A stretch of 64,000 bases of DNA. Source: a virus. The stretch covers positions 792-64,791 of the IMG/VR virus record IMGVR_UViG_3300033120_001036. One strand, written 5' to 3'. Numbering within the stretch: position 1 is the stretch's first letter; every line of letters starts with the position of its first letter. The position numbers and the translations under genes are program-made. Below the pieces are notes generated by a model, which saw only the letters and a list, made by a program, of their open reading frames with translations, was not told the DNA's origin and did no database searches. Positions 3,737-61,503 of this stretch are shown piece by piece.

Positions 3737-6700
3737 TTAACAAAATATTTGAATAAAAGTATTGTCTTTGGAGTATATAGTATTTTGTTGCCTATATGAA
3801 TCAAAAGAACATGATCCAGATATTGCTATCAAATTTCCTTCAAGAGATTTATCTAATATGCTAGAATACTCAATAGAAGAATCTTCCCACAAAACAACCC
3901 CAAATGATATAGATTTTTGTTCCATAATCATTTTACACATTTTTTTGCCACCTTTTGTTGTCATAGGGTTTACTTTTTTAACTATACCTATTATTACAAC
4001 ATCATTATCTCTACTACTTTCGAAATCTTCCATTTCTCCTATAGAAATGACCCTTTTATTGATTATATTTTCATCTAGATAATCTCTTAAAGATTCATAA
4101 TCTATACCGTCATATCCACATATTTGTTTTGATTTTAATTGCCACCACCAGTTTGAAATAAAACTATGATTCTTACCTATTTCTATAGTGTTTGTTTTTT
4201 CATTTCTAAGAGAGTCTAATTTTTCCACGATATTCAATCTATCCTTAGCTCTTTTTACGTCACAGATGTCATCAAATGCACCAGCATAAGCTAGATTGTA
4301 CATAACAGTTTTATTAACCAACTTTGAACATCTTTTGAAAAATTCTTCTATAGAATAAAATGAACCATTGGTATCTCTTTCTTCCATTAATTTGGAAAGT
4401 GAAGCTTCACCACACCCATAAATTGAAGATATTGACCAATAAATTGTATCTATACCATTTGTTGTAAATTCAGTTGTGGAAACATTAATCGAAGGTGGTA
4501 ATACCTTTATTGACCCAGAAAGTGCTATTTCATATAATTTATTTTGAATCTCATCATTTTTTGAATTTTTAAGAGAAACAGTCCAGAATTCTAAAGGGTA
4601 GTGAACTTTTAAATATTGTGCTATGTATCCCATTACAGAATAGGAAGCTGCATGGCTTCTGTTAAAACCATAAGCTCCAAATGCTAATATTTTTTCCCAA
4701 ACAGGTAAAGATTCATTTTTGTAAACTCCAAGTTCTTCATAGCCTTTAATGAATTTATCTTTGTATTCAAGATAATTAGGATCATCCCAATAATTACCTT
4801 TAAGTTTTGTTATAAATTTTCTAAAAGAATCTGATTCTATTAAAGAAGTTTTTGCAATTTTAGAATAAGCAGCCATAACTTGCTCTTGGTATACATAAAG
4901 ACCAACAGTATCTTTCGTTACATCATCTAAAAATGGGTCAAATTTTAAAACTCTTTGACCAAACTTTAATTCTACATAGTGATTATGTGCCCCAGAATCC
5001 ATAGGCCCTGGTCTATATAAAGCGTTAGCAGCTGTTAGTTCTTCTATATTGTCTGGTTTCAAATAAACAGAATATTTTTTCTGCGATGGCGATCCAAACT
5101 GGAAAACATCCTCATTCCACCCTGAGTGGAAATAATCATAAACACTTCTATCTTCTAAATTTAAGTTGTAAATATCTGGAACAGTTTTATTAGCTTTTTT
5201 TATTAATTCAAGTGTTTGTGAAAATTTACTTAATTGAGCTAAACCAAGAATATCAGCCTTTAAAAAACCAAGCTCATCCAATTCAGTTCCTTGAAGTTGA
5301 GTAACTAAATATCCATCAATTTCAGTTACTGGAGTATAATTTTCAAATTTACCTTGACCATCTCTAATTGGAACTATTATAGATGCTGAAGCATGAACAC
5401 CCATAGACCTTGGTTGTCCTATTATTGCTTCAAAAAGAGGTTGGAAATCTGAATATTTTTGTAAAATACTAAGAAGTTTTGGTTCTGAAGCTGCGCAAGC
5501 CATCAATCCTTCAAATGAATCTTCAAAATCTTTACCTATTGTTGATGTAGCCAACTTTACTGTTCCGAACTCAACACCAAGATATTTTAAAACATCAGTT
5601 AGTAAAGATTTTAATTTATACATAGAATAGGTTCCAACGTTAGAAACCCTATCATGTGTATATCTTTCCACCAAATACTGTTTAGCTTGATCTCTCTTTA
5701 CGTCTTCTATGTCTGTGTCAATATCTGGCAGTGATTTTTGAGCCCTACCTTCATTTAGAAAACGCTCAAATAGTAGGTTGTATTTTATTGGATCTATCTC
5801 TACAATATCTAATAAGTAACTTATTAAACTACCAGCAGCAGATCCTCTACCAAAACCAACTAAAATATTTCTTGCTCTACATTCTCTACAGAAATCGTAA
5901 AGGATTAAGAAGTAATCTAAAACACCAGCATCTTTTATAACCTTAAATTCTTTTTCTACTCTAGAAATGTATAAATTAAATTCTTCTTCGTCTTTTGGTT
6001 TTACTTTACAATTTAAACCAGTATCTATTTGGTGCCAAAATAAATCTTCCTTATCGTCGAAAAGCATTTCTTCTGTTTTTGTCAAAACATACTGAGGTAA
6101 TTTTCTGGAAAAATCAAACTCAAAACCAGAACACTTTTCTGACATTTTGACCGTGTTGTTGACTAACTTTTCTAATTCAATAAGTCCAAAATTTGAATCT
6201 GAAAACAATTCATAGGCTTGATTTACTAATTCAGTGTCAGATTTAAACCATTGATCTTCACTAGAAGGTAGGTTAATTCCACCTATTGTATTTATTAGTT
6301 TTTTAGCTTCATAGTCTTCTTTGTCTATGTAATATGAATCATGTATCCATACGAAACTTTCATCGAATGGAAGGCATTCTTTTATCCATAAAATTTGTTT
6401 ATTGTCTCTACTTTCTGAGCTCCATTCCAGAAAATTAATGGCAAAATAAAGATCATCTTGAAAGTATTCTATATATTTATCTATATAGTCTTTAATTTCA
6501 AAACAAACACCCATAACACAAACAAGACCTTCACTTCTATCAAAAACTTCTTGATGATTTATTGAAAGTAATTTATTGATTTGGATTTGAGATACTATGC
6601 TTGATAAGTTTCTCCAACCAATTTCATTTTTTACGTAAAGCTTTAAAGATCCTTCATTTGTTATTATCGTAGCGCCTATTATGGGTTTTATTCCTTCTGC

Positions 6701-9971: not shown

Positions 9972-10565
9972 TTACTTGGTTATATCTTCACACTCTTTTT
10001 TAAAATGACAGATCAAACAATTAACGTCTTTACTATCAAAGCCTCCAGTTACCCTAATACATGCAAGGTAATTCTCTTGAGACTTAAATAAAATTCTGTG
10101 TTTCGAAATAGAGGAGAGGGTTTCATTTTGGTTATTTATTTTTTTGTGATTAATATATCTTTTATAAAAGTCTTCTAGATTTATAGGTTTGAATTTTTCT
10201 AAACAATATTGAGAAAAAATTAAATCGTCAAACTCTACATCTCTTTTTAACCATCTTTCTATAGCTTTTTTGCCAAATACTTTTTGAATATCTATCTCGC
10301 CGTTGTTGTAATTCTCAACACCAGTTTCCCAAGTTATAGACAGCCATGAAAATTGAAAAGTTAAATAGGTAAATACAAAATTATGACCTATTACCACATC
10401 TTTATCAGCAAAAGCAATTAAGTATTTAGTCAATGTTTTTTTATCTCTTTCATTGACTTTTATATACCAATTTTTGTTTTTGTAAGTTATTTTTCTAGTA
10501 AAATACTCAAAAGCATCTAAACAAAAATCAAAATTAGAGACTGCTATTTTTTGTAATTCATTCAT
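9972..10565 (-). CDS. Hypothetical protein heading the helicase-primase-DnaE operon
   Basis: 197 aa with C-terminal Cys cluster (C..CLIC..C). Confidence 0.7.
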   Translation of the reverse strand: MNELQKIAVSNFDFCLDAFEYFTRKITYKNKNWYIKVNERDKKTLTKYLIAFADKDVVIGHNFVFTYLTFQFSWLSITWETGVENYNNGEIDIQKVFGKKAIERWLKRDVEFDDLIFSQYCLEKFKPINLEDFYKRYINHKKINNQNETLSSISKHRILFKSQENYLACIRVTGGFDSKDVNCLICHFKKECEDITK

Positions 10566-47843: not shown

Positions 47844-49496
47844 TTACAATTTAGAAATATAGTCATTAAAATTATTTACAAAAGGATTTGCTTCTAAACC
47901 TTTTTTAACGTCTTCTTCTACTGCATCTGTATTTTGCTGATCGCCCATTTGCATCATTTGATTTTGTTGAAATAAAGAAATATAAGAAGGGTTCATCGGC
48001 ATGTCTCCAAATTCTAGTGGATCTAGATCTCTTTTTGCTCTTATTTCATTTAATTTAGCGAAACTATTAACTGCCTTTATGTCGTTGTCTAACTCAACTT
48101 GTTCTGTTGTAGAATCTAAACCAACAAATTTTAGCTCGTACCCTGGGTGTAATTGAGATACTACATACTTATTTAACCAGAATTCTATTTGTTTCAATAA
48201 AGGAGTCAAACCTTTTTCTTTAGAGTACTGAAGTTTATATTCACCACTTGCATTTCCAAGACCACCACCACCTCCATCAGTGTTCCCATCTAAATGGAAA
48301 CCAAATTCAGTTGGATCTATTGTGTAAACTGCAGAACAAATTTTAATTAAAAATTCTTGGTACTTACTATACTCCATGTCTCTATTAGATTCATGCGTAG
48401 AAATCCAATCTATTTTGTCTGCGTTTACTATAGGTGTTTTATGCATATTCTCAACACCAGCCATTTGAGCTTGCCATTGACCTCTAAAGTCTTCAAGCGT
48501 ATTCATGTTGATGTTTCCAGAATACCTTAACAAACCTCTTGGATTAGATCCAACCTTAAAGAAATTTGAATTGTATTGATCTGAGTTAAGTAATGCAGTT
48601 ACTGTTTTTATTAAATCTTCAAGCTCTGAATTACCATATCCATTCGTAAGAATATCAGTAGACTGGTTTCTTACACCCATACATAATTCCCATGGGTAGA
48701 ATTGTGCTTCTACTTTAGAATGAATAACTTGAGCATATTGTGGTAAATATCCTTGAATCGTTAAATCGTCCAACTGTTTTTCGCTTAAATGAGAATAATC
48801 TGCCATTCTCATTGTAGCTCCATCCACTGCAAAAAATTCAACAGGTTGTCCCATTTTATTTCTTACAACTTCAAAACATGCTTGATCTAAGGTTAATGAA
48901 TCATCTGTAAGTAATCTTAAAAAGTTTTCGAATGTAGATGCATGCCAAATATTTTGACGAGTACCACAATCTAATATAAATTGAGTTATATAATCTATTT
49001 GTTTTTCTTCTTGAGCTGAAAGTTTTGTTTCTTTTGTTCCATTTCTAGATTTCTGAATCTTTTGAATTACAAAACCAGTTGAGTATTTATCTTTCTGTGG
49101 TTGCGCAAAAGATGCTATCTGGTTCTTTCTTGTTTTTATAATGGCATTAACTATATGTGTCTTACTCATCTTACGTAAGATGTCATAAGAAAGCGTATAG
49201 TATTTGTCTTTATAACCGTTTCCAGATCTTAAATCAAGTGGATCTATTAATAATGATTTACCAGCACCATCTTCTCTTTTCTGAATTGAGTTTATATATT
49301 TTCTTGCAGAATAGATTTTATTGATGTCGTCTGATTGAAGTGCTTTCTTGAGATTAATCTCTTTTTGAAGACTTAGAAGATGAATCTGACTATCAATATC
49401 ATTCATTGAAGAATTTAAATCTATTATTTTTGGCGCTCCAATTATATTTGGAGACACAATAGATTTAATTAATTTCTTATCTCTTCTTTTACTCAC
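47844..49496 (-). CDS. Portal protein
   Basis: DSLTLDQ..FE, VDGAT, GYG.SELE, RDMEY and NEIRA..DLDP motifs; GTG start. Confidence 0.93.
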   Translation of the reverse strand: MSKRRDKKLIKSIVSPNIIGAPKIIDLNSSMNDIDSQIHLLSLQKEINLKKALQSDDINKIYSARKYINSIQKREDGAGKSLLIDPLDLRSGNGYKDKYYTLSYDILRKMSKTHIVNAIIKTRKNQIASFAQPQKDKYSTGFVIQKIQKSRNGTKETKLSAQEEKQIDYITQFILDCGTRQNIWHASTFENFLRLLTDDSLTLDQACFEVVRNKMGQPVEFFAVDGATMRMADYSHLSEKQLDDLTIQGYLPQYAQVIHSKVEAQFYPWELCMGVRNQSTDILTNGYGNSELEDLIKTVTALLNSDQYNSNFFKVGSNPRGLLRYSGNINMNTLEDFRGQWQAQMAGVENMHKTPIVNADKIDWISTHESNRDMEYSKYQEFLIKICSAVYTIDPTEFGFHLDGNTDGGGGGLGNASGEYKLQYSKEKGLTPLLKQIEFWLNKYVVSQLHPGYELKFVGLDSTTEQVELDNDIKAVNSFAKLNEIRAKRDLDPLEFGDMPMNPSYISLFQQNQMMQMGDQQNTDAVEEDVKKGLEANPFVNNFNDYISKL

Positions 49497-50827: not shown

Positions 50828-51219
50828 TTTACTATTCTGCGATTGTCGTATTCCTTACCCCATTCCATCATTCTTTTGTAGAACTCATCTTTTCTAACTT
50901 TATCGTCTTTAAATTTATTGGAGTTTAAATAGATAGTACATAAAGCTTTTACCTCTTCTAACATTGAAGAGAACGTATGTATAGTTCTTTCAGATTGAGT
51001 TTCTTGGTGTATTAATGAAACATTCTCTATTGTTACAATAACAAATTCTGGATATTGTTCCTTATGACTATTTACTATGTTTGCTAGAAATGAATTAAAC
51101 TCCTCTAAATGAAATGTGTCAAATTCATATTCTGTACCTTTAGTTTCAGACCATAATTTAGCTCCATCTCCGTCACCCCCATCAGTAAATACTATCTTGT
51201 AAGAATAAAAATTTTTCAT
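50824..51219 (-). CDS. Hypothetical protein
   Basis: 131-aa ORF with an ATGA overlap to the next gene. Confidence 0.7.
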   Translation of the reverse strand: MKNFYSYKIVFTDGGDGDGAKLWSETKGTEYEFDTFHLEEFNSFLANIVNSHKEQYPEFVIVTIENVSLIHQETQSERTIHTFSSMLEEVKALCTIYLNSNKFKDDKVRKDEFYKRMMEWGKEYDNRRIVK

Positions 51220-51248
51220 AATTCAATTTGTTTATTTTATAAATTAAA

Positions 51249-51277
51249 ACACCCTCAAAATATAATTAAGAGGGTGT
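51249..51277 (-). terminator. Intrinsic terminator closing the RNA cluster
   Basis: acaccctc-N13-gagggtgt stem followed by TTTT on the minus strand. Confidence 0.7.
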
Positions 51278-51316
51278 CGGAACCTATAGCCATTTATTAA
51301 CACAAACTTAAAATCT

Positions 51317-51421
51317 AAAACAGTAGAACTCTCCTTCATACATAAACCCACATCTCCGTCAACGCTGCTATTTAGAGGTAATTCAAAGATTCTCAAGTGA
51401 CGTCTTGATTTCTACTGTTTT
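51317..51421 (-). ncRNA. Structured RNA closed by a 12-bp terminal stem
   Basis: aaaacagtagaa ... ttctactgtttt, with internal TCAAG/CTTGA hairpin. Confidence 0.45.
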
Positions 51422-51534
51422 GTGATAGGACCTCGATTCGAACAAGGATCTACACTACTAATCTATTCCGCTAACATAAAGCTAGTAAGGCAATAAATCC
51501 AGTTCGTGCAATTCTGCCATTAAACTATCCTACC
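51421..51534 (-). ncRNA. tRNA-like RNA with greatly extended anticodon arm
   Basis: Acceptor GGTAGGA/TCCTATC, D arm GTTT-AATGGCA-GAAT, T arm CCTTG-TTCGAAT-CGAGG; about 50 nt of hairpin in place of the anticodon loop. Confidence 0.75.
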
Positions 51535-51536
51535 TT

Positions 51537-51645
51537 GTTATCTCGTAGTTTTTAAGGTTTGTGCAAGTATGATGGATTACACATCTTCACCGTGATATAG
51601 TACAAACCTAATTCAATTGCTGATTTCCATTCCAGCTAAGATAAC
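51537..51645 (-). ncRNA. tRNA-derived RNA: acceptor plus D arm plus long hairpin, no T loop
   Basis: GTTATCT/AGATAAC closing stem, TA-GCTG-GAATGGAAAT-CAGC, AGGTTTGT/ACAAACCT stem. Confidence 0.45.
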
Positions 51646-51731
51646 TGTTGTCAATGCGATTTTGGTCGGTGTACTTTCAACCTAAACACTTCTTAACTAC
51701 ACTTTGTACAAATGTTGTATTAGTAATTGAA

Positions 51732-51804
51732 TTGCGGAGGCGAATGGACTCGAACCACTAACCTTAGGTGCGACCTAATGCTCTACCAATTGAGCTACAT
51801 CCCC
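51732..51804 (-). tRNA. tRNA-like gene with shrunken (5-nt) anticodon loop; isotype undetermined
   Basis: GGGGATG TA GCTC AATTGGTA GAGC A TTAGG TCGCA CCTAA GGTT AGTGG TTCGAGT CCATT CGCCTCC G. Confidence 0.75.
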
Positions 51805-52014
51805 ATTTTGTCGTCTTAATAATTTCTCTATGGTAAACTTCGACGACATACTTAAACCAAATTAAAGATGCTTAGGTATTACAAGAATATCTTAAAAGAT
51901 CTCTCTAAATTGTCTATTAACTCAGATAAGAAGTTTAAGTCAAACGCGACTGATTGCCTTATGCTTATTTTACGCAAAACTCATGTAATACTACCAAGTC
52001 AGCAATTCACGGTG

Positions 52015-52110
52015 TTGCTCTAATAAATGGAGTCGAACCATTCTCCCGATCATCTATTGTCCCACTAAACGAGGTATCGTCGTTTCACTGTGCCCATACA
52101 CCAATTAGAA
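52015..52110 (-). ncRNA. tRNA-like RNA with atypical central region
   Basis: Acceptor TTCTAAT/ATTAGAG, D arm GTGT-ATGG-GCAC, T arm AATGG-TTCGACT-CCATT; central AAACGA/TCGTTT hairpin plus about 24 extra nt. Confidence 0.6.
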
Positions 52111-52160
52111 TCCAGAGTTTCGAACCTCTGATTATATCAAGTTAATTAGACTTGATTTTT

Positions 52161-52269
52161 GTACGCTAGCACTGATTCGAACAATGCATTCTCTACACTT
52201 TGATTCTGGCTGAATTAGTAATTCTGCTCTCACCATCTGGTAGCGTGTTGCCATTAGACTAATAGCGTA
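52161..52269 (-). ncRNA. tRNA-like RNA with extended anticodon arm
   Basis: Acceptor TACGCTA/TAGCGTA, D loop TAATGGCA, T arm CATTG-TTCGAAT-CAGTG; CTAC/GTAG stem encloses 43 nt containing a GAATT/AATTC hairpin. Confidence 0.7.
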
Positions 52270-52304
52270 ACCACAATTACGTAAATAAAAGAACTTTATT
52301 CTCT

Positions 52305-52401
52305 TTCGAGATCAGAGAGTAGTAGTGTGACCCACTACCCTTACTACGCAGACACCATCGTCATGGCTTATGTCACTTGCACCAATTCAAGCTATTCTCG
52401 A
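52305..52401 (-). ncRNA. tRNA-derived RNA: acceptor plus D arm, with long 3' hairpin replacing the T arm
   Basis: TCGAGA/TCTCGA closing stem, TA-GCTT-GAATTGGTGC-AAGT, GTAGTG/CACTAC stem. Confidence 0.45.
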
Positions 52402-52560
52402 TGCTACGATAGTAGATTTACCTTAGATTCACTCAATACTTTTAGTTTGAATATAGATTTTACTTGGTCCTACGGTACTGGTGACGATCCATTAACCTTG
52501 GTCATTTGCATTCCGCCCCACAAAATCCCTACTACCACTTCGTTTAATTCAAACTAAATT

Positions 52561-52579
52561 CTTCAAAGAACTTTATTCT
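52561..52579 (-). promoter_or_regulatory. boxA-like antitermination motif at the head of the RNA cluster
   Basis: AGAATAAAGTTCTTTGAAG on the minus strand; the 15-mer core recurs at 52288-52302. Confidence 0.5.
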
Positions 52580-52594
52580 GTTTCCAGATTTTAC

Positions 52595-52879
52595 TTAACC
52601 TCTAATATCTTCGTCTTCATTTGTTAATGACTTCGAACCACCTGTCATTCCAGCAAAGTAACCATCTGAAATTACATTACCAGTAACGTTTATGTTACCT
52701 CTCACTCTAAGGTCTCTGTCTATAATCATTTCATTTGGACGTACTTCATACGGATAATGAATCTTAACTTCTTGTTTCTTAAGATTTCTTGTTTCCCACA
52801 TCAAAGCTATGTAAACAAAAAGTGCTATTCCACATGAAAATCCAAAACCAAGTACTAAAGCAGTAAAGAATGTGTTCAT
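52595..52879 (-). CDS. Small membrane protein
   Basis: N-terminal hydrophobic helix. Confidence 0.65.
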   Translation of the reverse strand: MNTFFTALVLGFGFSCGIALFVYIALMWETRNLKKQEVKIHYPYEVRPNEMIIDRDLRVRGNINVTGNVISDGYFAGMTGGSKSLTNEDEDIRG

Positions 52880-52899
52880 ATAATATTTTTTTGATGTTG

Positions 52900-52926
52900 T
52901 AAAAGTAAATAGTCTTTTTTTAAGAA
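52900..52926 (-). promoter_or_regulatory. Promoter (TACTTTTA) with degenerate palindrome TTTTTAAGAA
   Basis: Same spacing as the other copies; upstream of the RNA cluster. Confidence 0.55.
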
Positions 52927-52947
52927 AAAATATTTTATCAATTATTT

Positions 52948-53688
52948 TTAAGAAATTTTTAAATTATATTCTTCTTGTTTGACTATCAATCGATTATACC
53001 TTAAAACATCTACTTCCTTAATGTAAGCTAGATTATCATTAAAGCATTCTAACATTTCCATTTTTTCTATGTTGCCACTTTCCCAAATAACATGGCAATC
53101 TCTACAAAGTAGATTTATATTTCTTTCTTCTAATTTGAGATCTGGTCTATGTTTTACGCTTAATATATGGCTTCTATCTAACCATTGATTTCCATGACCA
53201 CATCCTTGACAAATGTATGCTCCATTGTCTTTGGCTTCTGTTGAGATTTTATCCTTAAGTTTTTTAAGCTCTATGTCTTCACTTGAAACCTTTACCTTAA
53301 TTGTTTGTTTTACTATGATCTTTTTTTTAGGAATCTTTATAGCTATATCTTTCTCTGAAGCGTATACAATCTCATTTGTCTCAAGAATCTCTATTTTGTA
53401 AGTCTTCACATAAGAATGCTCATTTTGAACATCTAAGATCTTTATTCTCTTCCCTTCGTATTCTTCTTCCCTATTATTGTGGTAAAATCTAAATGAACCC
53501 TCTGGATGCTTTTCTTTTATCTCAGTCGATTGTTTTTTGTTTGACGCATTATCCTTTGCTTTTTGCTTATATCGTTCAACACGTGTAACTCCATGTATTT
53601 TTATTTGATTACAATCGTCACATAACATGTGTGTTCTATTCACTATGAAGGTGTCTTTTTTGCATGTCGAGCACGTTTCCTTCTCCAT
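52948..53688 (-). CDS. HNH endonuclease with N-terminal zinc finger
   Basis: CQGCG...DRSHILS....N..LLCRDCH; N-terminal CSTC..CDDC. Confidence 0.85.
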   Translation of the reverse strand: MEKETCSTCKKDTFIVNRTHMLCDDCNQIKIHGVTRVERYKQKAKDNASNKKQSTEIKEKHPEGSFRFYHNNREEEYEGKRIKILDVQNEHSYVKTYKIEILETNEIVYASEKDIAIKIPKKKIIVKQTIKVKVSSEDIELKKLKDKISTEAKDNGAYICQGCGHGNQWLDRSHILSVKHRPDLKLEERNINLLCRDCHVIWESGNIEKMEMLECFNDNLAYIKEVDVLRYNRLIVKQEEYNLKIS

Positions 53689-54439
53689 TCTGATTTATGT
53701 CTTTAAATACTTCTTGAGTCTCTCTGGCTTGTGATTCTGCTAATAACCTAACTATTTCACCTGGTGTCTTGTTCATATAAAGAACTTCCTTATCTGAATT
53801 GTCTTTAAATTTAAGCTCTGTTTGAGCATATAGATTTTGTTCTATTTCACCAAGTATGACTGACTCAGAGTTTCTTAATTTTATATCAGATCCTTCTTTG
53901 TCAACCTTACATTTTTTAATGAGATTCAAAAATACTACTCTATCTTCAAGCGATAATTTTGTAATCGTTTTTTCTATTCTTTCTCTAGTAAAAATTTCTC
54001 TAGCAGTTAAATCCTCTATGATTCTCTTTGTTATCTTTACCCTTAAGTTTGTTTTATGGAATCCCAATAATGTCTCTTTCTGCTTCATAGCATCCATGAC
54101 ACTTGAAAGTTCGTAGTTCCTTCTAGTTAGAGCATTTAAATAGTCTTTGTAATCTTCAAATATTTCTGGATCTATATATGTGAGATTTATATTGTCTCGC
54201 ATTATTTGAGAATACCTTGCTATATGAAGTGCAAAGACATCTGTAGAATTTGTTGTCACTTCAGATCTCAAAGTATTTATAATAGCATTGTATTTTTTTA
54301 TAAACAATGCCTTATTCATTTTAGAATACTCTTTTTTAGATCTGATCTCATCCCATATTTGTGGACGCATCAAACCCAATTCAACAAGTCTTCTAATTTC
54401 TTCTTTTAATACTTCATTACTTCTCATAATTATACCCAT
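53636..54439 (-). CDS. Terminase small subunit-like protein (paralog B)
   Basis: H...Y.Q, MKQKETLL and LS.ED...L pattern shared with 56531-57127; adjacent to TerL. Confidence 0.45.
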   Translation of the reverse strand: MGIIMRSNEVLKEEIRRLVELGLMRPQIWDEIRSKKEYSKMNKALFIKKYNAIINTLRSEVTTNSTDVFALHIARYSQIMRDNINLTYIDPEIFEDYKDYLNALTRRNYELSSVMDAMKQKETLLGFHKTNLRVKITKRIIEDLTAREIFTRERIEKTITKLSLEDRVVFLNLIKKCKVDKEGSDIKLRNSESVILGEIEQNLYAQTELKFKDNSDKEVLYMNKTPGEIVRLLAESQARETQEVFKDINQNGEGNVLDMQKRHLHSE

Positions 54440-55875
54440 CCAGCAATTGCTGGACTATTATCTTCTAAACTTTCTGAAATTGCAATTACAGTTACGTCAA
54501 CCATGTCGTCGTGTTCTGAGTTAGGGAACATGCATAATTGATTCAAATAATTTTCAACGTATGGTCCATCTATTAATATGACTCTTCCAGTTTCTAATAT
54601 TGGAAGTTTTGAGTTTAATCTTGCCACTTTATCTGTATCTGGTGGTTTTGATTCCAACACGTTCAACATAGTTGTTGCTATTAATTGTTGAACTATTGAT
54701 TTTCCACTCGCTTTTGGTTCTACAAATATTCTTGAGTTAGCATTGTAACCCATTCTTGTCACATACAATTTTATGAAAGTTATCAAATCGTGAAACTCCA
54801 TCCAAACCTCTAAAACGTCTAATATATAAAGCTTATTGTCTTTTACAAAATACGACATTATAGCACTTGGATCGTTCTCTTCGTTACTTGTATACGCTGG
54901 ATCTATTGCAAAACATATTGGCTCATTTACTGTATCTCTACTTATAGTTACACTTTGGACTACTTTCATCCAAGCTCTCTTAACCATGTTTCCTTCTTCT
55001 TTGGCAGGAACCTGTGAATATTGGCCAGCATATCCCTTAGTCCCCAAAGCTGCCATCATTCCACTTAGAATATTATACCCTAATCTTTTTGGATCAAGTA
55101 AGTTGTTTTTATAAAACTGTCTTAATTCCTTAGGTTTTACTTTATCACTTAATTCTGCTGGTAAACATATATGCTTATAATGATTTTTTTTATCGTTCTT
55201 TAAAAGATGCCCAGTTAAATCATCTTCATGTAACCTTTGCATCACTATCATTCTCAAACCCAAATAGGCTGGAGTTAATCTATTGTATAATGATTGCGTA
55301 AAATATGAATTAACCTTTAGTCTTTCTGGTTTACTAATAGCTGTTTTAGGGTTTTGCGGATCATCTAGAATTATATACAATCCAGAAAAACCAGTAATGT
55401 TTCCACCAACTGTTTTACTTAATCTATATCCACCCTTGTCTGTAAAATAAAATGACTTAGCTTTTGAATCTGCACGTATAGAAAATACATCTCCGAACAA
55501 TTCTTTATATTCTGCTGATGTTATTATGTCCTTACATAATTGTGCGTTTAGAATCGATAAAGCGTCGTCGTAAGAAATACATAAAAATTTGGCTGCTGGA
55601 TTTCTAGTCCAAACCCAAGCATTAAAAATAACTGAACAAATTAAAGATTTAGATGTTCTCGGTGGAATGTTGATTATTAAATCTTGATCATTCTCCTCTC
55701 TTCTCTCTATTCTTTTTTGCTCAGCATCTAAAGTTTCACACAAGAATTCTATATGGAAATTATCTTCAAATGGTTCGTTAGAATGCAATAATTCAAATGC
55801 CCACTTAAAAAATTCATAATAGCTTTCTTTGTATGTACTTCGTTTTAGTTCTAATTCTAAAGCATCAAAATCCAT
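54430..55875 (-). CDS. terL: Terminase large subunit
   Basis: PPRTSKS Walker A, ILDDP Walker B, MQRLHEDD, AIDPA and HDDMVD nuclease motifs. Confidence 0.96.
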   Translation of the reverse strand: MDFDALELELKRSTYKESYYEFFKWAFELLHSNEPFEDNFHIEFLCETLDAEQKRIERREENDQDLIINIPPRTSKSLICSVIFNAWVWTRNPAAKFLCISYDDALSILNAQLCKDIITSAEYKELFGDVFSIRADSKAKSFYFTDKGGYRLSKTVGGNITGFSGLYIILDDPQNPKTAISKPERLKVNSYFTQSLYNRLTPAYLGLRMIVMQRLHEDDLTGHLLKNDKKNHYKHICLPAELSDKVKPKELRQFYKNNLLDPKRLGYNILSGMMAALGTKGYAGQYSQVPAKEEGNMVKRAWMKVVQSVTISRDTVNEPICFAIDPAYTSNEENDPSAIMSYFVKDNKLYILDVLEVWMEFHDLITFIKLYVTRMGYNANSRIFVEPKASGKSIVQQLIATTMLNVLESKPPDTDKVARLNSKLPILETGRVILIDGPYVENYLNQLCMFPNSEHDDMVDVTVIAISESLEDNSPAIAGWV

Positions 55876-57127: not shown

Positions 57128-57468
57128 ACTATTTCATATAAAATGGAATCAACTGTTGCATAACAAAAACCCTTATTTGTCGAAAAGAATAAATGTATCT
57201 TATACATTCCCTTAGCTTTATCTAATTCTGTTAAATAGATCTCACTTGGAAAATTCTTCAAACATTCTTTTAGTGTTTCAACATCTTCAAAATAACCATC
57301 TAAACCATTCTGTAAAAAGAACTTTAAATCAACCTCCCAAGACTTACCTCTTAATTGAAGAATAAACAACCTAAATAGATTGTAGAAGAAATGTCTACAC
57401 AATTCGAATTTGAAAATAGATCCAGTTTCGTATGTAATGTTCTCTATAAATTTGAAATGTTTTCTCAT
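57124..57468 (-). CDS. Hypothetical protein
   Basis: ATGA-coupled ORF. Confidence 0.65.
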   Translation of the reverse strand: MRKHFKFIENITYETGSIFKFELCRHFFYNLFRLFILQLRGKSWEVDLKFFLQNGLDGYFEDVETLKECLKNFPSEIYLTELDKAKGMYKIHLFFSTNKGFCYATVDSILYEIV

Positions 57469-60607: not shown

Positions 60608-60925
60608 TTATTTTTTTGGCTTAAATGGTTCTGAAACTGAAAATATAAGACGCTTACCCTTCATTATGTTTATCTTCCACTCGCGAACTATTGGATCTCC
60701 AATATACATACATTTTGGAGACCTCTTTAATGTAATCTTAGAATCCATATTTTTCAATAACCAATTGTTGAATAATGTTATGTATTTGCCTAAAGAATCT
60801 GTATCCTTTGAATTGTGAAATATCTCTAATTTTGTTTCAAGATCAATTTCCCATCTACTTCTGTAAGCATAAATCCTTTTTAATAATTGGAAACCTGCTT
60901 TATTGCTAAAAAATAACATTCTCAT
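60608..60925 (-). CDS. Hypothetical protein
   Basis: ATGA-coupled to the GIY-YIG gene. Confidence 0.6.
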   Translation of the reverse strand: MRMLFFSNKAGFQLLKRIYAYRSRWEIDLETKLEIFHNSKDTDSLGKYITLFNNWLLKNMDSKITLKRSPKCMYIGDPIVREWKINIMKGKRLIFSVSEPFKPKK

Positions 60926-61503
60926 AATTTAAAGTTTTTTATTTCTCCATAGTTACCAGATATGGAATATGTTGAGTTTAAGTGAATAAATGTATTTTTA
61001 TCACATATTGGTAATAAATAGTAATCTCCATTTAGATTAATTAAGTACATATTGACTCCGTTAATAACTCTTTTACAGAAAGTATTTTTCAAAAGATTGT
61101 ATTTTTCAGAAGTTTTTATTAATTCATTTACTTCGCAATCTTTATTTACTATTGTTGTAGATTTTGTTTTTCTTTCTTTAATGTAATTTATTTTTTCTTC
61201 TAACAATAAAGCTTTTTCTCTTTTCATAAGAGCTTCATCGTTGTACATTCTATTATATAGTGGTTTAAATTTCTTGATATACTGTTTCTCAAAAAGCAAA
61301 CCCTCTTCTTTCGTTTCAAATTCAATAGTATAAAATCTATCGAACATTTTGTCTGCTTTATGTGCTGCTAATCTGAAGTGTATATTGTTTGTGAAACCCA
61401 CATATACAATTTCATCTTCATGAATCAAAAAATAAACTACTGGAACACATAACTCAACTTGTTTAGAAAGTCTAATTATGTCTGATTTATAGTATTCGCG
61501 CAT
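60922..61503 (-). CDS. GIY-YIG family nuclease
   Basis: VVYFL....IVYVGFT.....R...H, E...I....P.YN. Confidence 0.85.
   Translation of the reverse strand: MREYYKSDIIRLSKQVELCVPVVYFLIHEDEIVYVGFTNNIHFRLAAHKADKMFDRFYTIEFETKEEGLLFEKQYIKKFKPLYNRMYNDEALMKREKALLLEEKINYIKERKTKSTTIVNKDCEVNELIKTSEKYNLLKNTFCKRVINGVNMYLINLNGDYYLLPICDKNTFIHLNSTYSISGNYGEIKNFKL

What the first reader, a model, noticed from the sequence alone, without database searches (positions are those of the whole stretch)
51249..52579. Operon of tRNA-shaped RNAs, none with a normal anticodon arm
Seen: a 1.3-kb higher-GC region without credible ORFs, bounded by an upstream promoter (52900), a boxA-like motif and a terminator. Four elements keep the acceptor stem, D-loop GG and T-loop TTCGA but have altered anticodon arms: a ~50-nt hairpin (51421-51534), a 5-nt loop (51732-51804), an odd loop with a long extra region (52015-52110) and a 43-nt insert (52161-52269). 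I found no canonical decoding tRNA. Established: RNase P recognises the acceptor/elbow rather than the anticodon; host anticodon nucleases (PrrC, RloC, PARIS AriB) target tRNAs; T4 makes non-tRNA stable RNAs within its tRNA cluster. Inference: these are decoys for tRNA-targeting defences, or tRNA scaffolds that process and display cargo RNAs.
Basis: partly seen in the sequence, partly recalled or inferred. Interest (0 to 1): 0.82.

Follow-up and report, generated by a model that had tools for sequence, protein, structure and literature searches.

The report
Phage operon of anticodon-less tRNA look-alikes
An uncultured phage carries a 1.3-kb RNA-only operon in which four tRNA-shaped RNAs with unusable anticodon arms alternate with other folded RNAs, the same unexplained kind of RNA long known from phages T4 and T5.

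Summary
Window 51241-52594 (minus strand) is an ORF-poor, G+C-richer, terminator-ended stretch between the terminase and portal genes of a ~120-kb phage. It holds four tRNA-shaped elements at the stated coordinates; shuffled windows gave about 0.3 hits each.

None has a normal anticodon arm. Two carry long continuous hairpins, one has G33 and a long extra region, and one, which both programs call a tRNA, aligns with a 5-nt loop.

They are not decaying genes. The only close relative (91% portal identity) keeps three of them, with many pairs changed on both sides and still paired. Two near-complete relatives have only aberrant tRNA-likes. More distant relatives carry normal tRNAs and a tmRNA at this locus.

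All four are followed by N73-CAA, the trailer that most true tRNAs of the clade have, so host tRNA-processing enzymes probably cut them.

The tRNA-like modules diverge or are swapped (50-83% identity). The folded RNAs between them are 96-97% identical.

My best reading is non-decoding tRNA shells that serve as processing and stability modules; a decoy role remains possible.

The kind is known: T4 RNA C and T5 RNA1/RNA2, function unknown. This scan noted it before in over 100 other genomes. No expression data were available.

The parts
52880..52909 (-). sigma-70-like promoter-like hexamers upstream of the 94-aa ORF; a possible start of read-through transcription into the RNA cluster
   Evidence: 9 of 12 consensus matches; the number of such sites in the region is not above that in shuffles
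52595..52879 (-). 94-aa ORF with no family match, lying between the promoter-like site and the RNA cluster
52565..52579 (-). copy 1 of an exact 15-mer motif. A 30-nt block around it is 100% identical in L001, where it ends 5 nt before the tmRNA. Its core also lies upstream of the permuted tmRNA in L051/L052.
52303..52564 (-). 'slot 0': an unrecognised ~260-nt folded RNA in the position where relative L001 has a tmRNA. It is replaced by 809 other letters in one metagenome relative.
   Evidence: z -2.1; no Rfam match at E<=10
52288..52302 (-). copy 2 of the 15-mer motif, just upstream of el.4. Both copies coincide with the break points of module replacement in contig X2.
52162..52268 (-). el.4: a tRNA-shaped RNA with acceptor stem, D arm (U8, A14, GG) and T arm (TTCGAAT). 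The anticodon arm is replaced by a ~60-nt irregular hairpin. N73 is followed by CAA.
   Evidence: 9 of 26 pairs changed on both sides and kept, against L001
52110..52156 (-). 'half-tRNA': a 7-bp stem with a 7-nt loop, followed by a T-arm-like hairpin with an 8-nt loop; 96% identical in L001, with one pair changed on both sides
   Evidence: (z -2.7)
52018..52109 (-). el.3: a 92-nt tRNA-shaped RNA with G33, a weak D arm and a long extra region. The acceptor stem covaries with L001. N73 is followed by CAA.
51805..52017 (-). spacer A: a 213-nt RNA predicted to form one long imperfect hairpin plus a 3' hairpin; 96% identical in L001
   Evidence: 5 of 5 substitutions in paired columns keep the pair
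51735..51804 (-). el.2: a 70-nt tRNA (Rfam 49.8 bits) whose anticodon arm is a 5-bp stem with a 5-nt loop. It has G3:U70 here but G3-C70 in L001. N73 is followed by CAA.
   Evidence: the arm is the hot spot of substitutions and insertions in X2 and X3
51535..51734 (-). spacer B: hairpins plus a self-closed ~107-nt domain (51538-51644). That domain has a D-arm-like hairpin and a closing stem, and is followed by A-CAA.
   Evidence: 6 of 37 pairs changed on both sides and kept
51423..51534 (-). el.1: a tRNA-shaped RNA whose anticodon arm is one continuous ~63-nt hairpin. Its D arm resembles that of el.4. N73 is followed by CAA. The slot holds a different tRNA-like in L001 and in X7.
51317..51421 (-). 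a domain closed by a 12-bp stem. The closing stem is kept, with changed letters, in L001. The domain is about 99% identical in contigs X2 and X7.
51241..51277 (-). intrinsic terminator: an 8-bp G+C-rich stem, a 13-nt loop and a T-run; it ends the operon 21 nt before the next ORF
   Evidence: 97% identical in L001

Best explanation
This is a phage operon that makes only stable non-coding RNAs. Four of them are tRNA shells. Each keeps the acceptor stem, the D/T-loop elbow and the trailer of a real tRNA, but has lost a readable anticodon loop.

Inferred mechanism. The transcript ends at the terminator at 51241-51277. Where it starts is not settled: the promoter-like site near 52900 or the repeated 15-mer are candidates. 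Host RNase P is predicted to cut at the 5' side of each shell. The host 3'-end pathway (cleavage after N73, then CCA addition) is predicted to cut at the 3' side. Each shell would then be a punctuation mark and a nuclease-resistant handle. Cutting would release the shells, with their structured arms, and the highly conserved folded RNAs between them as discrete species. Because only the acceptor/elbow part is needed for this, the anticodon arm is free to shrink, grow or be exchanged.

Shown here: the shapes, their conservation and covariation, the shared trailer, and the mosaic pattern among relatives.

Inferred, not shown: transcription, cleavage, CCA addition, and what the released RNAs do.

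The kind is that of T4 RNA C and T5 RNA1/RNA2, whose role is also unknown.

The confidence given (0.5) is for the whole statement, including the processing and stability role. For the narrower claim, that these are selected, non-decoding tRNA-shaped RNAs and neither decayed genes nor decoders, I would give about 0.8.
For: 1. Real and non-random: 4 elements against about 0.3 hits per shuffled window.

2. Selection on the tRNA fold, from window against L001, the only close relative (L003 is identical to L001 over this region). Pairs changed on both sides and kept: el.4, 9 of 26; el.2 with L001 and L084, 7 of 20; acceptor stem of el.3, 2.

3. U8, A14, G18-G19, the T54-C56 loop and G53-C61 are present in el.1, el.2 and el.4 (sequence).

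4. Shared processing context. N73-CAA follows 4 of 4 window elements, and all 5 L001 tRNA-likes plus its tmRNA. It also follows 13 of 17 ARAGORN-called genes in clade loci, including 6 of 8 canonical tRNAs of L017, and T4 rnaC. CAA occurs at only 0.019-0.027 of positions.

5. Not decoders.
- Loop of 5 nt in el.2; G33 in el.3.
- The long arms of el.1 and el.4 fold as continuous helices.
- Only el.2 matches the tRNA model, even at E<=10.
- GCG, the codon el.2 would read, is 24 of 743 Ala codons.
- G3:U70 is not kept in L001.
- The arm of el.2 differs in length and letters in X2, X3 and L084 while the body is kept.

6. Interleaved RNAs are the most conserved parts: 96-97% identity against 50-83% for the shells and 81-84% for flanking genes. 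Their substitutions preserve pairing.

7. Near-complete relatives G001 (100%) and G003 (98%) have only aberrant tRNA-likes.

8. No SmpB or CCA-enzyme family match over cut-off in 5 records, so host enzymes would be used.

9. Precedent. The T5 record annotates RNA1 and RNA2 as 'tRNA-like stable RNA with unknown functions', among tRNAs and other stable RNAs. RNA2 folds as an acceptor/D/T frame with an expanded middle.
Against: - No RNA run holds the stretch, so transcription, cleavage sites, CCA tails and stability are all untested.
- Covariation rests on two distinct close sequences, plus one distant one for el.2.
- Pure punctuation does not explain why the long arm of el.4 keeps its own paired structure, with 3 of its pairs changed on both sides.
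- It also does not explain why short closed loops recur (el.2; the L001 element in the el.1 slot; the 6-nt loops of L038 and L084).
- The high conservation of the spacers could reflect DNA-level roles or recent exchange rather than RNA function. In contig X2 part of spacer A and most of spacer B are replaced.
- el.3 has a poor D arm and lacks U8. Its MFE fold is not better than shuffles (z +0.66).
- The window's contig is about 53% complete, so canonical tRNAs elsewhere in this genome cannot be excluded.
Confidence: 0.5

Rival explanations
1. Decoys or sponges. The shells titrate a host factor that recognises the tRNA body, acceptor end or elbow rather than the anticodon. Candidates are a defence toxin acting on tRNA 3' ends, or SmpB in the case of tmRNA-TLD-like molecules. 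Because they cannot decode, they do not disturb phage translation.
For: - The shells are the fast-changing, swapped component between near-identical spacers in L001, X2, X3 and X7, as expected for an arms-race locus.
- The arms stay paired while their letters change.
- The locus holds a tmRNA in relatives.
- Published precedent: the tmRNA-TLD-only molecule of mycobacteriophage DS6A, and the statement that a similar molecule strongly inhibits tmRNA, perhaps by titrating SmpB (PMC4131195, passages read).
Against: - No target is identified.
- G3:U70, required for a tmRNA-like alanine identity, occurs in only one window element and is lost in L001.
- Divergence of 62-83% is close to that of the flanking DNA (81-84%), so it need not be faster than neutral.
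Confidence: 0.2
2. Chargeable but non-decoding adaptors. The shells are aminoacylated by synthetases that ignore the anticodon (Ala, Ser, Leu). They then act outside normal decoding, as aminoacyl donors or as modulators of charging, EF-Tu or stringent signalling.
For: - el.2 has G3:U70 in the window.
- The 6-nt-loop tRNA-likes of L084 and L038 have G3:U70 with A73.
- The element in L001's el.1 slot has a long variable arm with G73, which looks serine-like.
- All elements carry an intact acceptor stem and the clade's tRNA trailer.
Against: - G3:U70 is G3-C70 in L001.
- The identity rules are recalled, not tested.
- No aminoacyl-transferase or synthetase gene was found among the 40 window ORFs scanned; that is 10 with PHROGs and Pfam and 30 with Pfam alone. 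About 15 of the 54 ORFs of at least 120 aa were not scanned.
Confidence: 0.1
3. Genuine decoding tRNAs. Either they have unusual anticodon arms, or they become normal after removal of the 34-43-nt inserts as introns.
For: - ARAGORN with -i builds cloverleaves with anticodons TAG and CAA after removing the inserts.
- el.2 scores 49.8 bits and keeps the letters CGC in L001.
Against: - The insert positions (29/30 and 30/31 in ARAGORN numbering) are not the canonical 37/38.
- The inserts are far shorter than group I introns, and no bacterial pathway for short tRNA introns is known (established knowledge).
- The inserts fold as helices continuous with the stem and covary as such.
- The el.1 slot holds a different RNA in L001 and X7.
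- GCG is 3.2% of Ala codons.
- No self-cleaving ribozyme or intron family matched at E<=10.
Confidence: 0.08
4. Decaying tRNA pseudogenes left over from the canonical tRNA array seen in more distant relatives.
For: Relatives at about 50% portal identity have canonical tRNAs at this locus: 8 in L017, and others in L021 and L033. 34 of 44 further records of the portal family have no tRNA match at all, so tRNA genes are dispensable in the clade.
Against: - Many pairs changed on both sides and kept.
- The tertiary-contact nucleotides and the trailer are conserved.
- Near-complete genomes retain single aberrant tRNA-likes.
- Near-identical copies of el.1 and el.4 occur in a metagenome contig from another study.
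Confidence: 0.05

Closest known systems
Phage T5 RNA1 (144 nt) and RNA2 (125 nt), annotated in record AY543070 as 'tRNA-like stable RNA with unknown functions'. They lie among the T5 tRNA genes and other 'stable RNAs with unknown functions' (RNAI, RNAIII, RNAIV, RNA2H).
   Same: - They sit in a phage tRNA/stable-RNA cluster and are interleaved with other small stable RNAs.
- RNA2 folds as acceptor stem, D arm and T arm (TTCGAAT loop) around an expanded, branched middle. RNA1 has a D arm, a T arm and an extended middle.
- The function is unknown.
   Different: - T5 also has a full set of canonical tRNAs beside them. Here every tRNA-shaped element of the operon is aberrant.
- There is no sequence similarity beyond a 16-nt T-arm match.
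- T5's RNAs are known from experiments to accumulate (per the annotation). Accumulation is untested here.
Phage T4 RNA C (species 1, rnaC, 139 nt) and RNA D (species 2, rnaD, 119 nt), stable RNAs of the T4 tRNA cluster
   Same: - They are encoded directly next to tRNA genes.
- rnaC ends in a perfect 5-bp T stem with a TTCGAAT loop. Its 5' and 3' ends pair, and it is followed by CAA, like the elements here.
- Their roles are unknown (PMC3014915, passage read; PMC9697503, passage read, which classes them as late RNAs and reports a Northern blot for them).
   Different: - rnaC's acceptor-like pairing is short: 3 end pairs in the MFE fold, with no clear D arm seen.
- I found no T loop in rnaD.
- There is no sequence similarity.
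The tRNA-like domain (TLD) of tmRNA, and the TLD-only molecule of mycobacteriophage DS6A
   Same: - It is a tRNA frame with no anticodon stem-loop, with a helix leaving from that position.
- It is phage-encoded (PMC4131195).
- A true tmRNA sits in this operon in the closest relative: L001, 78.4 bits.
   Different: - The window elements keep a D stem, and most lack G3:U70.
- Nothing in the window cluster matches any tmRNA model at E<=10.
- No SmpB gene was found in 5 records.
tRNA punctuation of mitochondrial transcripts; tRNA-linked small RNAs of murine gammaherpesvirus 68; engineered tRNA scaffolds for RNA expression
   Same: The logic is the same: tRNA-shaped modules recruit RNase P and RNase Z to release or stabilise neighbouring or embedded RNAs. 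The mitochondrial model comes from the PMC3790967 abstract in the listing; the other two are recalled.
   Different: Those systems are eukaryotic or artificial. No bacterial or phage case of punctuation by non-decoding tRNA shells is documented in the papers I searched.
Bacillus cereus pseudo-tRNA 'tRNA-Other'
   Same: It is a tRNA-shaped RNA that does not function in translation yet has a physiological effect (PMC3399842, abstract seen in the listing).
   Different: It is chromosomal, single, and has a normal-sized cloverleaf. It is not part of a phage RNA operon.

Membership tests
Canonical decoding tRNA (Rfam RF00005) | Score at or above the family's gathering threshold (29 bits) | tested here: not met
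   Only el.2 passes (49.8 bits). el.1, el.3 and el.4 give no RF00005 match even at E<=10 in a 1.85-kb search.
Canonical decoding tRNA (Rfam RF00005) | 5-bp anticodon stem closing a 7-nt loop with U33 and a purine at position 37 | tested here: not met
   - el.2: 5-nt loop in the Infernal alignment.
- el.3: G33.
- el.1 and el.4: ~60-nt continuous hairpins.
Canonical decoding tRNA (Rfam RF00005) | 7-bp acceptor stem, D loop with G18-G19, T loop TTCRA with G53-C61 | tested here: met
   All four pass my scanner for these features. el.3 does so with a weak D stem and G8.
tmRNA (RF00023 and the two-piece tmRNA families) | Match to a tmRNA covariance model; G3:U70; a tag reading frame | tested here: not met
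   No tmRNA-family match in 51100-52950 at E<=10. ARAGORN -m finds nothing. By contrast L001 has a tmRNA of 78.4 bits with a tag ending in AA.
Phage 'tRNA-like stable RNAs' of the T5 RNA1/RNA2 and T4 RNA C kind | Encoded within a phage tRNA/stable-RNA gene cluster | tested here: met
   Relatives hold canonical tRNAs and tmRNA at the same place upstream of the portal gene. The window cluster is ORF-free and ends in a terminator.
Phage 'tRNA-like stable RNAs' of the T5 RNA1/RNA2 and T4 RNA C kind | tRNA acceptor/T-arm frame around a non-tRNA middle | tested here: met
   Window elements. T5 RNA2, T5 RNA1 and T4 rnaC were checked the same way.
Phage 'tRNA-like stable RNAs' of the T5 RNA1/RNA2 and T4 RNA C kind | Accumulates as a discrete stable RNA during infection | not testable with these tools
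   No RNA run holds the stretch, and the phage is uncultured.
Phage 'tRNA-like stable RNAs' of the T5 RNA1/RNA2 and T4 RNA C kind | Sequence homology to the T4 or T5 RNAs | tested here: not met
   Only 12-16-nt matches by blastn-short. The kind is defined by plan, not by sequence.
Intron-containing tRNA (group I, or archaeal bulge-helix-bulge) | Intron at 37/38 or with a bulge-helix-bulge motif; or a group I core of about 200 nt or more | tested here: not met
   The inserts are 34 and 43 nt, at ARAGORN positions 30/31 and 29/30. No intron family matched. A bulge-helix-bulge motif was not searched for explicitly.
   The 15-mer is exact at two sites and conserved in L001, and its core is conserved in L051/L052. 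Its likeness to boxA rests on a recalled consensus. Function is not testable here.

The most novel reading that the evidence does not exclude
The tRNA shells are a hypervariable, cassette-exchanged array of anti-defence decoys. Near-invariant linker RNAs would act as recombination and processing landmarks. Between them, phages of this clade would swap non-decoding tRNA bodies that soak up host factors recognising the tRNA acceptor end or elbow, such as 3'-end-modifying abortive-infection toxins or SmpB. If so, T4 RNA C and T5 RNA1/RNA2 would be the same device.
Probability: 0.15. Interest if true: 0.85.

Novelty: new member of a known kind. Interest (0 to 1): 0.55.

Why it matters
tRNA-like stable RNAs in phage tRNA clusters have had no assigned function for decades. 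T4 RNA C and D are described as 'biological roles unknown' (PMC3014915), and T5 RNA1 and RNA2 as 'unknown functions' (AY543070).

This locus adds comparative facts that constrain the answer.
- An operon can consist only of such shells.
- The tRNA frame and the clade's tRNA trailer are under selection, while the anticodon arm is free to change.
- The RNAs between the shells are far more conserved than the shells.
- Shells are exchanged as modules among relatives from different habitats.

These facts favour a processing or scaffold role, or alternatively a decoy role. Both can be tested in T4 and T5, which are tractable.

For annotation, such elements are either missed or mis-called as 'tRNA-Tyr(ata)', 'tRNA-Phe(aaa)' or intron-bearing tRNA-Leu.

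Tried and rejected
1. blastn ('distant') of the whole cluster against 50,697 deposited phage records: no match.

2. More close relatives.
- A portal-based scan of metagenome contigs gave only relatives at 37-47% identity.
- The ORF next to the cluster has no homologue but itself.
- The portal search found nothing between 59% and 100% identity.
- DNA patterns from el.4 and el.1 found only the L001/L003 contigs, or nothing.
So covariation rests on two distinct close sequences.

3. No RNA holder was listed among public runs. This says nothing about expression.

4. Slot 0 as a diverged tmRNA: rejected.
- No model match.
- Pairwise alignment to the L001 tmRNA shows only the shared flanking motif and one 15-letter word.

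5. My attempt to force the cloverleaf in RNAfold with hard constraints did not take effect: constrained and free folds were identical. I used the free folds and RNAalifold instead.

6. The RNAalifold consensus for the half-tRNA plus el.3 did not recover el.3's T arm. I use only its acceptor-stem and half-tRNA counts.

7. Reconstructing the el.2 arm of contig X2 from the difference tables suggests a 5-bp stem with three pairs changed on both sides. Two indels were not shown by the tool, so I treat this as a hint only.

8. The first version of my scanner was too loose: it hit AT-rich coding DNA and gave 1.35 hits per shuffle. It was replaced by the stricter version.

9. Pfam and PHROGs scans of 40 window ORFs found no tRNA- or RNA-processing enzyme. 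About 15 of the 54 ORFs of at least 120 aa were not scanned.

10. No SmpB or CCA-enzyme family match over cut-off in 5 records.

11. Literature. Four full-text searches found no paper describing anticodon-less tRNA shells as a phage RNA family, or their function. I read passages only of PMC10690425, PMC7609411, PMC3014915, PMC9697503 and PMC4131195. Other papers I saw as listings or abstracts. Supplementary files were not opened; the supplementary tables of PMC10690425 may list related candidate RNAs. The library lacks most subscription-journal papers, including the original T4 and T5 stable-RNA work, which I cite only through the record annotations and the review passage.


Full report
**What the window is.** It is nearly the whole of a 64.8-kb IMG/VR virus record, estimated about 53% complete.
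- All long ORFs lie on the minus strand.
- The finding lies between the terminase large subunit (54430-55875), an HNH-type ORF (52948-53688) and a 94-aa ORF (52595-52879) on one side. On the other side are a 131-aa ORF, a DEDDh exonuclease and the portal gene (47844-49496).
- Other scanned ORFs include a DnaE-type polymerase, a DnaB-like helicase and baseplate J, so this is a large tailed phage.

**The observation.**
- 51220-52594 has no ORF above 76 aa and is G+C-richer than its flanks.
- ARAGORN by default calls two genes, 'tRNA-Ala(cgc)' at 51734-51804 and a 93-nt 'tRNA-Tyr(ata)' at 52017-52109.
- With introns allowed it adds 51423-51534 (43-nt insert). At a lowered threshold it adds 52162-52268 (34-nt insert).
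- Rfam reports only the first as tRNA, at 49.8 bits. A permissive search of the 1.85-kb region adds nothing credible.
- That Infernal alignment places 4 residues where the model has 6 between the loop's first position and the 3' strand.
- A scanner of my own found exactly these four elements in the window. It required a T loop TTCRA, G53-C61, at least 6 of 7 acceptor pairs and GG in the D loop. Twenty shuffled windows gave 6 hits in all.
- RNAfold gives el.1 a cloverleaf-like frame with one long hairpin in place of the anticodon arm, z -2.3.
- The four elements are therefore real, at the stated coordinates, and none has a standard anticodon arm.

**Relatives.**
- Portal-based searches found one close lineage (contigs L001, L002 and L003, 91% portal identity) and many distant ones. 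L002 does not reach the cluster. L003 is identical to L001 over the region, so there is one independent close sequence.
- L001 has, in the same order: the 15-mer motif, a genuine tmRNA (Rfam 78.4 bits, tag ending in AA), the motif again, and homologues of el.4, the 'half-tRNA', el.3, spacer A, el.2 and spacer B. It then has a different tRNA-like in the el.1 slot, a fifth tRNA-like and the same terminator.
- At about 50% portal identity the locus holds ordinary tRNAs: 8 in L017, and others in L021 and L033. It also holds tmRNAs: L033, a permuted one in L051/L052, and a partial one in L023.
- A tRNA/tmRNA array is therefore probably ancestral in the nearer relatives. In the window's lineage every tRNA-shaped member is aberrant.
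- Across whole records, two near-complete relatives have only aberrant tRNA-likes. G001 (100% complete) has a 147-nt one at 25 bits. G003 (98%) has one with a 6-nt loop, plus a 123-nt one found by my scanner.
- 34 of 44 further records of the portal family have no tRNA-model match at all.

**Selection.**
- Window against L001: el.4 has 9 of 26 predicted pairs changed on both sides and kept. These lie in the acceptor stem, the T stem and the long arm.
- el.2, with L001 and the distant L084, has 7 of 20.
- el.3's acceptor stem has 2.
- This is not the pattern of decay. It rests on very few sequences, so I give counts and not a statistic.

**A shared trailer.**
- All 4 window elements, and all 5 L001 tRNA-likes plus its tmRNA, are followed by N73-CAA.
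- So are 13 of 17 ARAGORN-called genes in clade loci, including 6 of 8 canonical tRNAs of L017. T4 rnaC has it too.
- CAA occupies about 2-3% of positions.
- The aberrant elements thus sit in the same processing context as true tRNAs of the clade.
- From established knowledge that RNase P, RNase Z and the CCA-adding enzyme read the acceptor/T-arm/elbow and not the anticodon, I infer that host enzymes cut and tail them. This is inference; no RNA data exist.

**An unexpected conservation pattern.**
- Against L001 the tRNA-like modules are 50-83% identical: el.4 71%, el.3 62%, el.2 83%, and the el.1 slot 50%, which means unrelated.
- The segments between them are 96-97% identical: the half-tRNA, spacer A, the middle of spacer B and the terminator.
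- Flanking coding DNA is 81-84% identical.
- The spacers look like RNAs. In spacer A, 5 of 5 substitutions in predicted paired columns keep the pair, and the other differences fall in unpaired columns. Spacer B has 6 of 37 pairs changed on both sides and kept, and contains a self-closed domain followed by A-CAA.
- Contigs of four metagenome runs from four studies show the same mosaic.
  - X2 has el.1 and el.4 nearly unchanged. It has other letters in place of el.3 plus the half-tRNA, of most of spacer B, and of slot 0 (809 letters, with break points at the two 15-mers).
  - X3 and X7 carry different T arms next to near-identical spacers.
  - In el.2 the substitutions and insertions of X2 and X3 cluster in the 15-nt anticodon arm.

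**Against decoding.**
- Beyond the arm shapes, GCG, the codon a CGC anticodon would read, is 24 of 743 Ala codons.
- G3:U70 of el.2 is G3-C70 in L001.
- The 'introns' are at non-canonical positions, are too short for group I, and fold and covary as helices continuous with the stem.

**Comparison with what is known.**
- This scan's earlier notes pointed to T4 and T5, and I checked both.
- The T4 record has rnaC and rnaD ('small, stable RNA') directly beside tRNA-Arg. rnaC ends in a 5-bp T stem with a TTCGAAT loop, and its ends pair.
- A review states that the roles of RNA C and RNA D are unknown (PMC3014915, passage).
- The T5 record annotates RNA1 and RNA2 as 'tRNA-like stable RNA with unknown functions', among tRNAs and four other 'stable RNAs with unknown functions'. 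RNA2 folds as an acceptor/D/T frame with an expanded middle.
- That is the same plan and the same neighbourhood as here, without sequence similarity.
- A TLD-only tmRNA in mycobacteriophage DS6A, and the idea that such a molecule titrates SmpB, are in PMC4131195 (passage).
- The scan's index lists 108 notes in at least 102 genomes on this theme. The kind has therefore been seen repeatedly on other DNA.

**Verdict.**
- The elements are functional, non-decoding tRNA shells of the T4 RNA C / T5 RNA1-RNA2 kind, in an operon that contains nothing but such shells and other folded RNAs.
- I judge a processing-and-stability (punctuation/scaffold) role most likely, a decoy role next, and decoding or decay unlikely.
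- The pattern of conserved spacers with exchangeable shells and a uniform tRNA trailer is what this locus adds. The function itself remains untested.

Noticed in passing
L001 5015-5340; L033 3528-3818; L051/L052 2848-3347; L023 1-116: Phage-encoded tmRNAs occur upstream of the portal gene in several relatives. L001 and L033 have one-piece forms, L051/L052 a circularly permuted form, and L023 one cut by the locus end. No SmpB family match was found in 5 records of the clade.
   Followed up: partly
window 52565-52579 and 52288-52302; L001 4997; L051/L052 2859: The core of the repeated 15-mer lies a few bases upstream of the tmRNA in L001 and upstream of the permuted tmRNA in the distant L051/L052. 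In 1.13 Mb of related loci it occurs only there. The window has one more copy inside coding DNA, at 57325. It may be a promoter, an antitermination site or a processing site for the RNA genes.
   Followed up: partly
window, 44 long ORFs: ATA makes up 799 of 1298 isoleucine codons (62%), which is unusually high. No tRNA that could read ATA was found in the contig.
   Followed up: no
L096 and L126 (match at 10536 and 1987); L113 (match at 4118): Unrelated phage contigs carry the same tRNA 5' half as el.2, but with 63-nt and 76-nt middles in place of the usual 22 nt. Of 57 pattern hits in IMG/VR, 8 had a middle of aberrant length and were otherwise complete tRNA frames; two further short ones were poor or incomplete frames. 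Expanded tRNA shells are therefore not confined to this clade.
   Followed up: partly
window 51640-51692: A ~50-nt stretch of spacer B recurs at 80-92% identity on separate short contigs with other flanks, two in run X2 and one in run X7 (depth about 30 in X7). Its nature is unknown.
   Followed up: no
L017 2413-2496: Among L017's eight otherwise ordinary tRNAs, the 'tRNA-Pro(tgg)' is 84 nt long with a 13-nt variable region and scores only 25.7 bits. Oddities therefore also occur beside canonical tRNAs in the clade.
   Followed up: no
window 52948-53688 and 60922-61503: An HNH-type endonuclease ORF lies between the terminase gene and the RNA operon, and a GIY-YIG ORF lies further upstream. Homing endonucleases also sit inside the T4 (segB) and T5 (hegC) tRNA clusters.
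   Followed up: no
L038 1223-1345 and 1420-1495; L084 2311-2381: Distant relatives carry tRNA-likes with G3:U70 and A73 (an alanine-like acceptor) but 6-nt anticodon loops. L038 also carries a 123-nt expanded tRNA-like.
   Followed up: partly
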